Assembly: GCF_016903815.1 (NCBI RefSeq)
Contig: NZ_CP069973.1
DNA: 64,000 nt
DNA from: Escherichia coli
GTDB lineage: Bacteria > Pseudomonadota > Gammaproteobacteria > Enterobacterales > Enterobacteriaceae
Direction: 5' to 3' (one strand)
Part shown: piece by piece, positions 27,001-30,000 of the stretch
Position numbering within the stretch: position 1 is the stretch's first letter
Layout of the letters: the number at the start of each line of letters is the position of its first letter
Position numbers: made by a program

Positions 27001-30000
27001 CGAGAGACTTCCCTTTCACCCATTCGGTGACCAGGGAGCTGGAAGCGATAGCAGAACCGCAGCCGTAAGTTTTAAAACGCGCGTCTTCAATGATACCTTC
27101 ATCGTTGACTTTAATCTGCAACTTCATTACGTCGCCACAGGCCGGTGCACCCACCATGCCGCTGCCGACGTTCTCGTCGTTGTTGTCAAAGGAACCCACG
27201 TTACGCGGATTCTCGTAATGGTCGATAACTTTTTCGCTGTAAGCCATTATAAATTCTCCTGATTCCGATACCGATTAATGATGTGCCCATTCGATGCTGT
27301 TCAGATCCACGCCCTGCTTGTACATTTCCCACAGCGGAGAAAGGTCACGCAGACGACCGATGGATTTACGAACTAACTCGATGGTGTAGTCGATCTCTTC
27401 TTCAGTAGTAAAACGACCTAAAGAGAAACGGATAGAGCTATGTGCCAGCTCGTCGTTCAGCCCCAGCGCGCGCAGCACGTAGGACGGTTCGAGGCTTGCT
27501 GACGTACAGGCGGAACCTGAAGAAACCGCGAGGTCTTTCAGCGCCATAATCAGCGACTCACCTTCAACGTAGTTGAAGCTGACGTTGAGAATGTTCGGCG
27601 CACCGTGTTCCAGGTCACCGTTCAGGTAAACTTCTTCGATATCTTTGATGCCGTTCCACAGACGGTTACGCAGGCCGCGCAGACGTTCCATCTCGGTCGC
27701 CATCTCTTCTTTTGCGATGCGATAGGCTTCGCCCATACCAACGATCTGGTGAACAGGCAGAGTGCCGGAACGCATACCGCGCTCGTGACCGCCGCCATGC
27801 ATTTGCGCTTCGATGCGTACGCGCGGTTTACGACGCACATACAGCGCACCGATACCTTTCGGGCCATAGATTTTGTGACCGGAGAATGACATCAGGTCAA
27901 CTTTCAACTGGCTCAGGTCGATAGGCAGTTTGCCCACGCTCTGGGTTGCATCAACGTGATAGATAATGCCTCGAGCACGGCACATTTCGCCGATAGCCGC
28001 GATATCCTGCACCACGCCGATTTCGTTATTTACGTGCATTATGGAAACGAGGATGGTGTCGTCACGCATCGCTGCTTCCAGTTCTTTCAGGTCGATAATG
28101 CCATTACGCTGCGGTGCCAGGTAGGTGACTTCGAAACCTTCGCGCTCCAGCTGACGGCAGGTATCCAGTACCGCTTTGTGTTCGGTTTTGCTGGTGATGA
28201 TGTGCTTGCCTTTTTTCTGATAAAAGTTGGCTGCACCTTTGATCGCCAGGTTGTCAGATTCGGTTGCACCAGAGGTAAAGACGATTTCACGCGGGTCAGC
28301 GCCGACCAGATCGGCAATCTGATTACGGGCGATATCTACCGCTTCTTCAGCCTGCCAGCCGAAACGGTGAGAACGGGAGGCCGGGTTACCAAAGGTTCCG
28401 TCCATCGTCATAAACTGCATCATTTTCTCGGCAACACGCGGGTCCACCGGCGTGGTTGCGGAGTAGTCGAGATAAATCGGTAATTTCATTGCTCTATAAA
28501 CTCCGTACATCACTCAATGCAAGGAACCAGGCTACCGGCTGGATGTACGACCGTGTTTACGGAGTGTTAAACACTCCGGCCTGATTCTGAATACTTTTTA
28601 TTAAGCGCGTAACTTAACGTCGATCGCGTCTTGTGTGCGGGTGCGTGGCGCGTCGTGAGTATGCTGACGACCAGACACATCCAGCACTTCCTGGTTATTA
28701 ACCAGTTCGCCTAAAGTAATGTTGTTGAGAAAACCGGTGAGACGGTCGCTCAAATCACGCCACAGCGCGTGGGTCAGGCATTTATCGCCGCCCTGGCAGC
28801 CGCCTTTACCCTGACAACGGGTGGCATCTACAGATTCGTCAACGGCGCTAATCACTTCGCCAACGGCGATACTGCTGGCATCTTTGCCTAACAGATAACC
28901 ACCGCCTGGTCCACGTACGCTGGAAACCAGACCATTTTTACGCAGACGGGAAAACAGTTGTTCCAGATAAGAAAGGGAAATTCCCTGACGTTCGGAAATA
29001 TCAGCCAACGGTACCGGGCCCGCTTCAGAGTTGAGCGCAACGTCAAGCATTGCGGTCACGGCATAGCGCCCTTTAGATGTCAGTCTCATGTCTTACTTCA
29101 CCTCAAACTCGCCCCTGCCCGGGGTTTTTTATTGTAAAAGTGGGGGTATTGCATAGCAGGGTCAAGTCTGACATTCCCGAGTAAATTGGTCAACTATTTA
29201 CTTGACTGATTTAGTCGGGTATTTAACCTTCAGTGCCATTTTTTTATCGTGGCGTTTGTACCTGTTGTCGGATGCGGTGTGAACACCTTATCCGACCTAC
29301 GGTTCTGTACATTGTAGGCCTGATAAGACGCGTTAAGCGTCGCATCAGGCAACCACTATTATTCGGCCTTATTACCTTTATTCTGCTGCTCTATAGAAGC
29401 CAGAATCCCGCGCAGGATATTCAATTCCTGGCTTTCCGGGCGCGCACGGGTAAACAAACGACGCAATTTATTCATCACCTGCCCCGGATGGTTTTCACGG
29501 ATAAAACCGGTTGCCAGCAGCGTTTGTTCCAGATGACCATAAAAACGCTCCAGATCATCGACCAGCGGATACGGCGTCTCTTCATGCTCGACCTGCTCAC
29601 CATTTTCCTGAGTTGCAAGCCAGGCCATGCGCACTTCATAGGCAATAACCTGAACCGCCATTGCCAGGTTCAGCGAACTGTATTCCGGGTTAGCGGCAAT
29701 CGCGACATGATAATGGCATTTCTGTAACTCTTCATTGGTCAAGCCGACGCGTTCGCGACCAAAAACCAGCGCCACCGGGGTATTTGCCGCTTCAGCGACG
29801 CTTTTCAGACCGCATTCGCGCGGGTCGAGCATCGGCCACGGCAGCGTGCGGGAGCGTGCGCTGGTGCCCACCACCAGGCTACAACCGGCTAACGCTTCGT
29901 CGAGCGTATCGACGATATGAGCATTACCAATCACATCGCTGGCCCCTGCTGCCAGGGCAATCGCCTGGGAGTCAGGTTTCACCAGTGGATTAACCAACCA

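What the first reader, a model, noticed from the sequence alone, without database searches (positions are those of the whole stretch)
28490..28600. Structured iscR-iscS spacer
The 111-nt spacer in the iscRSUA mRNA has nested inverted repeats (GGAGTGTTTAACACTCC and GTACATC...GATGTAC). This is the region where, in E. coli, RyhB pairing leads to loss of the downstream iscSUA message while a stable structure protects the iscR part. The elements are present, so differential operon stability is probably retained.
Basis: partly seen in the sequence, partly recalled or inferred. Interest (0 to 1): 0.25.

Follow-up and report, generated by a model that had tools for sequence, protein, structure and literature searches.

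The report
Known iscR–iscS mRNA stability element
This is the E. coli copy of an already described folded RNA spacer between the iscR and iscS genes, which lets the small RNA RyhB destroy the downstream iron-sulfur assembly message while sparing the regulator gene; it is ordinary and already catalogued.

Summary
The window is E. coli. The 111-nt iscR–iscS spacer (28600..28490, minus strand) matches Rfam RF01517, the "iscR stability element", over its full length (131.7 bits; threshold 40).

The first inverted repeat (GGAGTGTTTAACACTCC) is real.

The second inverted repeat (CGTACATC/GATGTACG) is also real, but it is not nested with the first. It is absent from the MFE and from the Rfam consensus, and it cannot be tested because its arms never vary.

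From spacer nt 75 through the iscS start the sequence is identical to K-12, where RyhB regulation was shown experimentally. In silico, RyhB pairs over the SD and AUG (about −8 kcal/mol after accessibility correction). That is favourable but not exceptional. RyhB is present in 5424 of 5426 E. coli genomes.

Side findings:
- Hairpin 1 is hypervariable within E. coli, and the window's perfect palindrome is a minority allele.
- The structured module occurs only in Enterobacteriaceae.
- The RyhB/SD module is conserved across the order.
- An invariant loop complementary to the SD-proximal segment remains unexplained.

The parts
28601..29089 (-). iscR coding sequence (162 aa), the upstream cistron whose mRNA fragment is spared
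   Evidence: ORF. Annotated as iscR in identical E. coli genomes and in K-12.
28491..28600 (-). iscRS element (Rfam RF01517, 'iscR stability element'). It fills the whole 111-nt iscR-iscS spacer.
   Evidence: cmscan 131.7 bits against a gathering score of 40, E = 4.6e-36, model positions 1-110 of 110.
28579..28587 (-). Helix 2, 5' strand (spacer nt 14-22, GAAUCAGGC). It pairs with 28524-28532.
   Evidence: Present in the MFE and centroid and in the Rfam consensus. Of its 9 pairs, 4 have compensatory double changes and 99.6% of cells are paired across 57 distinct sequences. RNAalifold recovers it.
28524..28532 (-). Helix 2, 3' strand (spacer nt 69-77, GCCUGGUUC). The window has a U-G pair where K-12 has U-A.
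28560..28578 (-). It is nested inside helix 2.
   Evidence: repeat I1. Hairpin energy is -11.8 kcal/mol here, against -8.8 for the K-12 allele. 4 of 6 model pairs show compensatory double changes across genera. Within E. coli a U-A pair is replaced by C-G.
28534..28556 (-). Helix 4 (spacer nt 45-50 with 63-67), closing a 12-nt loop UCGUACAUCCAG (28539-28550).
   Evidence: Present in the Rfam consensus and the MFE. 3 of 5 pairs have double changes. Loop nt 52-59 are invariant in all loci scoring at least 82 bits, apart from one C-to-U change.
28542..28549 (-). It lies in the loop of helix 4.
   Evidence: repeat I3. Not paired in the MFE or the Rfam consensus. No covariation is possible.
28504..28511 (-). 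3' arm of the second inverted repeat (GAUGUACG). It overlaps the first G of the iscS Shine-Dalgarno sequence and the predicted RyhB site.
   Evidence: repeat I3. It stays conserved in species that lack the 5' arm, and in Serratia, Dickeya and Pectobacterium, which lack the element entirely.
28501..28504 (-). iscS Shine-Dalgarno sequence GGAG (spacer nt 97-100; 11 nt between it and the AUG)
   Evidence: Read directly from the sequence. Invariant in all 62 aligned loci.
28486..28509 (-). Best accessibility-corrected RyhB target site, -20..+3 relative to the A of the iscS AUG. Blocks GUACGGAGU and GAGCAAUG pair with RyhB nt 53-63 and 40-47.
   Evidence: hybrid -18.5, total -8.0 kcal/mol. The sequence is identical to K-12. 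This is a prediction only; the experimentally mapped pairing could not be read because the primary paper is not held.
28497..28520 (-). Alternative RyhB register (-31..-8: GCAUUGAGUGAUGUACGGAGUUUA with RyhB nt 31-55). It has the best hybrid energy but poor accessibility.
   Evidence: -19.1 kcal/mol; top 0.9% of all 24-nt windows in the 64 kb. (total only -2.3 after opening costs).
27275..28489 (-). iscS coding sequence (404 aa from the annotated ATG), the first cistron lost after RyhB pairing

Best explanation
The spacer is the E. coli iscR-iscS intercistronic element (Rfam RF01517). It has two modules.

- **5' structural module** (spacer nt 14-77). A 9-bp helix encloses hairpin 1 and a second small hairpin. 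This is a compact, stable fold with no U-tract, so it is not a terminator.
- **3' sequence-constrained module** (nt 78-111 plus the first iscS codons). It carries the iscS Shine-Dalgarno sequence, the AUG and the RyhB pairing site.

Under iron limitation Fur repression is lifted and RyhB is made. With Hfq, RyhB pairs over the iscS ribosome-binding site, blocks translation and triggers RNase E-dependent decay of iscSUA. The structural module just upstream stops degradation from proceeding into iscR. A stable, translatable iscR fragment therefore accumulates, and apo-IscR can activate suf.

**Shown here:** identity with the family, the fold, evolutionary support for helices 2-4, RyhB complementarity at SD/AUG, and sequence identity with K-12 over the RyhB site.

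**Taken from the literature, not tested here:** RyhB/Hfq/RNase E dependence and the protection of iscR.
For: - The window is E. coli.
- RF01517 matches full length at 131.7 bits.
- The MFE is -32.6 kcal/mol, z = -2.5. The core persists in a 251-nt context, z = -2.8.
- Across 62 loci 93.5% of cells are paired, and 12 pairs have double-sided changes against 6.8±1.3 in shuffles (0/500 reach the observed value) and 1-7 in slid controls. Helices 2, 3 and 4 carry the signal. RNAalifold independently recovers helices 2 and 3.
- My own model finds exactly one hit per locus, always abutting the iscS ATG, in 829 kb.
- There is no terminator-like or promoter-like site in the spacer.
- RyhB complementarity covers SD and AUG, total -8.0 kcal/mol.
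- The RyhB-site region is identical to K-12.
- RyhB is present in 5424/5426 E. coli genomes.
- MS2-RyhB pull-down enriches the iscS_iscR intergenic region 17-fold (PMC12533949).
- The mechanism is restated in PMC11572966 and PMC7038943.
Against: - The in-silico RyhB signal is not exceptional. It ranks 4th of 37 crude translation-initiation regions in this window. The hybrid-only energy is in the top 0.9% of 24-nt windows, which is more than 1000 windows.
- Helix 1 (the outer helix touching the SD) is weakened in this allele by a U-U mismatch and is only 77.5% paired across species.
- Helix 5 shows no covariation.
- The 3' part refolds differently in a longer context.
- No experiment was done on this strain's allele of hairpin 1.
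- The primary paper (Desnoyers 2009) could not be read, so the mapped pairing and the probed structure are known only second hand.
Confidence: 0.9

Rival explanations
1. The element acts mainly as a cis-acting translational control of iscS by masking the ribosome-binding site. This could be thermometer-like or depend on an alternative fold, and it would work independently of RyhB. The SD-proximal segment would be sequestered by helix 1, by hairpin 5, or by pairing with the conserved loop of helix 4. This could also be an additional function rather than a replacement.
For: - The Rfam consensus pairs AAUUC (nt 8-12) with GAGUU (nt 98-102), across the SD.
- IR2 is an 8-bp perfect match between an invariant loop and the segment abutting the SD.
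- Helices 2-4 plus the IR2 duplex sum to about -33.9 kcal/mol before any pseudoknot penalty, against -32.6 for the nested MFE.
- In Serratia, Dickeya and Brenneria the homologous intercistronic region matches Rfam RF02783, 'IscS-1 ICR thermometer'.
Against: - Helix 1 is only 77.5% paired and one of its pairs is mostly unpaired. Helix 5 and IR2 show no covariation.
- The 3' arm of IR2 stays conserved where the 5' arm is absent, so its conservation does not need IR2.
- RF02783 does not match the window even at E<=1.
- The whole 3' half (nt 48-104) is nearly invariant in the core group, so the loop is not uniquely conserved.
Confidence: 0.15
2. It is simply a REP-type (repetitive extragenic palindromic) repeat that happens to sit here. 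On this view it is a generic exonuclease barrier like hundreds of others and not a dedicated element.
For: - The literature calls it a REP structure (PMC7038943).
- Hairpin 1 has a GC-rich imperfect-palindrome design, GCCGG...CCG(G), that is reminiscent of REP.
- Other small palindromic repeats (ERIC-like and others) have repeatedly inserted at this very spot.
Against: - It is single copy in every one of 5424 E. coli genomes, even with blastn word size 11.
- My covariance model finds only the iscS-adjacent copy in 829 kb of enterobacterial DNA.
- Its position is fixed relative to the iscS ATG across genera, while its distance to the iscR stop varies by about 0-135 nt.
- Caveat: blastn at E<=1e-5 cannot detect 20-30-nt partial similarity to REP consensus sequences.
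Confidence: 0.05
3. It is an intrinsic terminator or attenuator that makes a short iscR transcript by stopping transcription before iscS.
For: There is a stable GC-containing hairpin directly after a stop codon.
Against: - No U-tract follows any of the hairpins, and the terminator scan finds nothing in the spacer.
- The literature attributes the short iscR RNA to RyhB- and RNase E-dependent processing.
Confidence: 0.02

Closest known systems
Rfam RF01517 iscRS, the 'iscR stability element' (E. coli K-12 iscR-iscS spacer; Desnoyers, Morissette, Prévost & Massé, EMBO J 2009)
   Same: - Same species, locus, length (111 nt) and strand relation.
- Full-length model match at 131.7 bits.
- Identical RyhB/SD/AUG region.
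   Different: - There are 5 substitutions against K-12. Three of them turn K-12's 6-bp hairpin (with a G-U pair and a 5-nt loop, -8.8 kcal/mol) into a perfect 17-nt palindrome (8-bp stem counting the flanking C-G pair, 3-nt loop, -11.8 kcal/mol).
- One substitution gives U-G in place of U-A in helix 2.
- One substitution removes a pair of helix 1.
- This allele is in only about 205 of 5424 genomes.
Rfam RF02783, 'IscS-1 ICR thermometer' (iscR-iscS intercistronic region of Yersinia-type Enterobacterales)
   Same: - Same intercistronic position.
- Shares the order-wide conserved motif GAAGUGAUGUACGGAG...AGAGCA directly upstream of the iscS AUG.
   Different: - Those spacers are about 54-58 nt in Serratia and Dickeya (longer, with unrelated inserts, in Brenneria) and lack helices 2-4.
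- The window does not match RF02783 even at E<=1.
- No temperature response is known or tested for the E. coli element.
REP (repetitive extragenic palindromic) elements acting as 3' mRNA stabilisers, for example in malE-malF
   Same: A stem-loop at the 3' end of an upstream cistron that protects it from degradation and gives discoordinate operon expression.
   Different: It is a single-copy, locus-specific sequence and not a dispersed repeat. It is also coupled to an sRNA-triggered cleavage downstream.
Other sRNA-driven discoordinate operon regulation (for example Spot 42/galETKM, NarS/nirBDC-cysG)
   Same: An sRNA pairs inside a polycistronic mRNA and changes the fate of the downstream cistrons relative to the upstream ones (discussed in PMC7038943).
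   Different: Here a dedicated intercistronic structure, rather than a terminator or translation-only effect, preserves the upstream fragment.

Membership tests
Rfam RF01517 iscRS (iscR stability element) | Match to the family covariance model at or above the curated gathering score (40 bits) | tested here: met
   131.7 bits, E = 4.6e-36, model 1-110 of 110, not truncated.
Rfam RF01517 iscRS (iscR stability element) | Located in the iscR-iscS intercistronic spacer, in mRNA sense, directly upstream of the iscS start | tested here: met
   28600..28491 on the minus strand, between iscR (stop at 28601) and iscS (ATG at 28489).
Rfam RF01517 iscRS (iscR stability element) | Forms the consensus helices, with evolutionary support for them | tested here: met
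   Helices 2, 3 and 4 are in the MFE and carry compensatory changes across 62 loci. Helix 1 has one mismatch in this allele and weak support. Helix 5 is invariant and so uninformative.
Rfam RF01517 iscRS (iscR stability element) | RyhB complementarity at the iscS translation-initiation region | tested here: met
   The predicted duplex covers the SD and AUG: hybrid -18.5, total -8.0 kcal/mol. The sequence is identical to K-12 there. The signal is not statistically exceptional on its own (rank 4 of 37).
Rfam RF01517 iscRS (iscR stability element) | Protects the iscR fragment from degradation after RyhB/RNase E-dependent cleavage | not testable with these tools
   Known from K-12 experiments as cited in PMC11572966, PMC12533949 and PMC7038943. 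The primary paper is not held.
REP (repetitive extragenic palindromic) elements | Dispersed in many copies per genome | tested here: not met
   There is 1 place per genome in 5424 genomes with blastn word 11, and one hit per locus with my own model in 829 kb.
REP (repetitive extragenic palindromic) elements | Similarity to REP consensus sequences | not tested
   I noted only an informal resemblance (AGGCCGG...). No REP profile was available.
Rho-independent terminator | GC-rich stem-loop followed by a U-tract | tested here: not met
   There are no terminator-like sites within 28490-28600. The sequence after hairpin 1 is UAAACACGG.
Rfam RF02783 IscS-1 ICR thermometer | Match to the family covariance model | tested here: not met
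   There is no hit at E<=1 in 28300-28800 and none at the gathering score anywhere in the window. The family does hit Serratia, Dickeya, Brenneria and Symbiopectobacterium loci.

The most novel reading that the evidence does not exclude
The invariant 8-nt core (CGUACAUC) of the helix-4 loop may form a pseudoknot with GAUGUACG, which abuts the iscS Shine-Dalgarno sequence. The loop would then be a built-in competitor of RyhB for the same segment. It would set basal iscS translation and tune how easily RyhB can invade, for example by opening when the structural module is remodelled.

Pseudoknot-free folding cannot evaluate this pairing. Its energy is competitive: about -33.9 kcal/mol before the pseudoknot penalty, against -32.6 for the nested MFE. 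No published description of it was found in the papers I could read.
Probability: 0.12. Interest if true: 0.35.

Novelty: already known. Interest (0 to 1): 0.1.

Why it matters
The element is part of how E. coli switches from the Isc to the Suf iron-sulfur assembly pathway under iron starvation. That circuit also affects aminoglycoside tolerance (PMC6497325 and PMC11572966, as listed).

Confirming the element in this window adds nothing new to that biology. It tells an annotator to label 28491-28600(-) as RF01517.

The comparative by-products have modest value for specialists:
- The element has a modular build, with a drifting structural module and a nearly invariant module carrying the RyhB site and SD.
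- The structural module occurs only in Enterobacteriaceae.
- Hairpin 1 is hypervariable within E. coli.
- Small repeats have repeatedly inserted upstream of the element.

Tried and rejected
- **Unrestricted RNAduplex of RyhB against 171 nt of target.** It gave a meaningless whole-molecule zipper (-59.5 kcal/mol; 8 of 500 shuffles as good). I replaced it with local windows and an accessibility-corrected scan. The first version of that scan timed out.
- **Inverted repeat I2 (ACUCCGUA/UACGGAGU).** Considered as an alternative SD-sequestering helix. It is 10 kcal/mol worse when enforced and only 74.7% paired with no covariation. Rejected.
- **Terminator or internal promoter in the spacer.** None found.
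- **Small ORFs overlapping the spacer.** They are the in-frame GTG extension of iscS and two short unsupported ORFs (42 aa on the + strand, 37 aa on the - strand). None was pursued as coding.
- **Reading Desnoyers 2009 (DOI and PMC2693151) and the Yersinia RNA-structurome paper (PMC4932938).** Neither is held. A search for 'iscR stability element' found nothing, and no supplements were held for PMC3495738.
- **Checking K-12 annotation for a catalogued REP in the spacer.** No repeat features are listed anywhere in 25 kb. This copy of the record may not carry them, so the result is uninformative.
- **A conservation profile conditioned on 'GTACATC'.** It is circular for nt 53-59. I rely instead on the unconditioned alignment of all loci scoring at least 82 bits.
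Full report
**Observation**

The isc operon lies on the minus strand of the window:
- iscR 29089..28601
- iscS 28489..27275
- iscU 27247..26861
- iscA 26850..26521

Both quoted repeats exist in the mRNA sense.
- CGGAGUGUU/AACACUCCG is a 9-nt perfect inverted repeat.
- CGUACAUC/GAUGUACG is an 8-nt perfect inverted repeat.

This is beyond chance. In 1000 dinucleotide shuffles, a hairpin-type repeat of at least 8 nt occurs in 0.6%, and two or more repeats of at least 8 nt occur in 0.1%.

The repeats are not nested in each other. They lie side by side.

**Identity**

A 501-nt stretch around the spacer is 100% identical to several complete E. coli chromosomes and is present once in 5424 of 5426 genomes. 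So the window is E. coli.

Rfam RF01517 (iscRS, "iscR stability element") matches 28600..28491(-) over its full length, at 131.7 bits against a gathering score of 40. The feature is therefore a catalogued member of a known family.

**Structure**

The spacer folds to -32.6 kcal/mol (z = -2.5).
- The same helix also encloses a second hairpin whose 12-nt loop is UCGUACAUCCAG.
- A weaker 3' hairpin follows.

In a 251-nt mRNA context the same core is kept in both the MFE and the centroid (z = -2.8), while the 3' part re-pairs differently.

Enforcing it in a nested fold costs 5.4 kcal/mol.

**Comparative test**

I anchored a genome scan on the degenerate coding sequence of the IscS N-terminus, so as not to condition on the element itself. 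This gave 92 loci from Enterobacterales and a few outgroups.

A covariance model built from 13 seeds with the Rfam-type structure found the element in 62 sources (the window plus 61 of the 92 loci). There was one hit per locus, always abutting the iscS ATG, in 829 kb searched.

Pair counts on these hits:
- 93.5% of cells are paired.
- 12 pairs have double-sided changes, against 6.8±1.3 in shuffles (0/500 reach the observed value) and 1-7 in slid controls.
- The signal sits in helix 2 (4 of 9 pairs), helix 3 / hairpin 1 (4 of 6 pairs) and helix 4 (3 of 5 pairs).
- Helix 1, the outer helix touching the SD, is only 77.5% paired.
- Helix 5 never covaries.

This alignment was fitted to the model, which favours the structure. 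RNAalifold nevertheless recovers helices 2 and 3 independently.

The second repeat (IR2) cannot be tested, because its arms do not vary where both are present. Its 3' arm stays conserved in Cedecea, Buttiauxella and Mangrovibacter, which lack the 5' arm. It also stays conserved in Serratia, Dickeya and Pectobacterium, which have no element at all. The conservation of the 3' arm therefore does not need IR2.

**RyhB**

RyhB was taken from the K-12 annotation.
- *Hybrid-only scan.* The best site near iscS is -31..-8 at -19.1 kcal/mol. This is in the top 0.9% of all 24-nt windows in the 64 kb.
- *With opening energies.* The best site is -20..+3. Blocks GUACGGAGU (containing the SD) and GAGCAAUG (containing the AUG) pair with RyhB nt 53-63 and 40-47, for a total of -8.0 kcal/mol. 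This ranks 4th of 37 crude translation-initiation regions in the window.

Complementarity is therefore present, but the computation alone would not single out iscS. The stronger argument is that the window is identical to K-12 from spacer nt 75 through +60 of iscS. In K-12 the regulation has been demonstrated and re-confirmed:
- 17-fold MS2-RyhB enrichment of the intergenic region, and a 6-fold IscRS-LacZ increase in ΔryhB (PMC12533949);
- a 90% drop of full-length iscRSUA on RyhB overexpression (PMC11572966).

RyhB is in 5424 of 5426 E. coli genomes.

**Anatomy in evolutionary perspective**

The motif GAAGUGAUGUACGGAG...AGAGCA-AUG is conserved across Enterobacterales. In Serratia and Dickeya it makes up most of a 54-58-nt spacer. 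In those genera and in Brenneria and Symbiopectobacterium, whose spacers are longer, the region matches Rfam RF02783, "IscS-1 ICR thermometer".

Enterobacteriaceae proper carry an additional structured module (helices 2-4) upstream of this motif. Rfam's own model still reaches its threshold in Franconibacter, Cedecea, Buttiauxella and Tenebrionibacter.

The structural module drifts by compensatory change. The 3' half (nt 48-104) is almost invariant in the core genera.

The element keeps a fixed distance to iscS. Its distance to the iscR stop varies by roughly 0-135 nt, because various small palindromic repeats have inserted there.

**Within E. coli**

The spacer ranges from 90.5% to 100% identity. 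The window's exact allele is in about 205 of 5424 genomes.

Variation is confined to hairpin 1 and the 5' flank, apart from one wobble-compatible G/A change in helix 2. The alleles seen are:
- GGAGUG...(C/U)ACUCC, the K-12 and window type;
- GGGGCG...CGCUCC, which has a U-A to C-G compensatory change.

The window's perfect 17-nt palindrome is stronger (-11.8 kcal/mol) than K-12's hairpin (-8.8).

**Mechanism**

The best explanation is the established one. RyhB, with Hfq, pairs over the iscS ribosome-binding site, and RNase E-dependent decay removes iscSUA. The upstream structural module blocks decay into iscR, so apo-IscR accumulates.

- *Shown here:* family membership, the fold, covariation, complementarity and sequence identity with the tested K-12 region.
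- *Inferred from the literature:* every biochemical step.

**Rivals**

- *Intrinsic terminator.* Excluded by the lack of a U-tract.
- *Generic REP element.* This is the literature's label (PMC7038943), but the element is single copy.
- *RyhB-independent ribosome-binding-site masking or a thermometer-like role.* Possible as an extra layer, but it lacks covariation support.

**Unexplained residue**

The invariant loop CGUACAUC is perfectly complementary to the segment abutting the SD. Loop-to-downstream pairing would be a pseudoknot, which nested folding cannot score.

Helices 2-4 (-24.3 kcal/mol) plus the duplex (-9.6) come close to the nested MFE. This is the only non-trivial reading left open, and I give it a low probability.

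**Verdict**

Interest is low.

Noticed in passing
L010 3372-3500 (E. coli UTAK-15, NZ_CP169018.1); also L008: A ~129-nt ERIC/IRU-like repeat (...CACTCCGGTCACTTACTTATGTAAGCTCCCGGAGATTC...; the resemblance to the ERIC consensus is from memory) is inserted between the iscR stop and the element, giving a 240-nt spacer. The element downstream still scores 118 bits. The junction is present in 491 of 5426 complete E. coli genomes, including O111:H8 strains.
   Followed up: partly
L033/L053 (Salmonella), L035/L041/L063/L067/L071/L076 (Klebsiella/Raoultella), L057/L087/L099 (Citrobacter/Enterobacter), L048/L080/L081 (Kluyvera): In many genera, unrelated palindromic sequences of 35-135 nt sit between the iscR stop and the element, while the element stays flush with the iscS ATG. 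The site just after iscR seems to be a recurrent landing place for small repeats.
   Followed up: no
L015, L019, L046, L090, L017 (Serratia, Dickeya, Symbiopectobacterium, Brenneria): The iscR-iscS intercistronic region of these genera matches a different Rfam family, RF02783 'IscS-1 ICR thermometer' (62-130 bits). It shares with E. coli only the motif GAAGUGAUGUACGGAG upstream of the AUG.
   Followed up: partly
window 28539-28550 (-): The 12-nt loop of helix 4 (UCGUACAUCCAG) has an 8-nt core that is invariant in all ~45 loci scoring at least 82 bits, while the neighbouring stems drift. The consensus structure leaves the loop unpaired, so its conservation is unexplained.
   Followed up: partly
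window 28560-28578 (-) and E. coli loci L001, L003-L009: Hairpin 1 is a polymorphism hot spot within E. coli, with at least four alleles and one 5-nt loop insertion in strain BHUCD02. The rest of the spacer is invariant apart from one wobble-compatible G/A change in helix 2. The window's perfect palindrome is a minority allele, in about 205 of 5424 genomes.
   Followed up: partly
window 28490-28513 (-): An in-frame GTG-ATG (28513/28510) extends the iscS ORF by 8 or 7 codons ([12 protein letters not shown]...). The annotated start is 28489. The extra codons coincide with the order-wide conserved GUGAUGUACGGAG motif.
   Followed up: no
window 25893 (-) (hscA start) and 30218 (+) (suhB start): The crude RyhB scan scores the hscA translation-initiation region (-9.2 kcal/mol) and the suhB one (-11.1) better than iscS. 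The hscA result fits the 2025 report that RyhB represses hscBA-fdx-iscX (PMC12533949). The suhB result is in silico only.
   Followed up: no
window 20644-20822 (+), 20954-21258 (+), 57836-57983 (-), 7756-7847 (-), 33-149 (-): Other Rfam hits above threshold in the window are IS128, ryfA, GlmY, sroE, and an ALIL pseudoknot at the very start of the window. I recall, untested, that ALIL is the IS3-family frameshift signal, which would point to an insertion sequence there.
   Followed up: no
L066 (Enterobacter sp. EA-1, CP025776.1): The tblastn match to IscR stops early (87% identity) and the computed 'spacer' is 404 nt. This suggests a frameshifted or disrupted iscR, or a sequencing error. The element itself is intact at 111 bits.
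   Followed up: no
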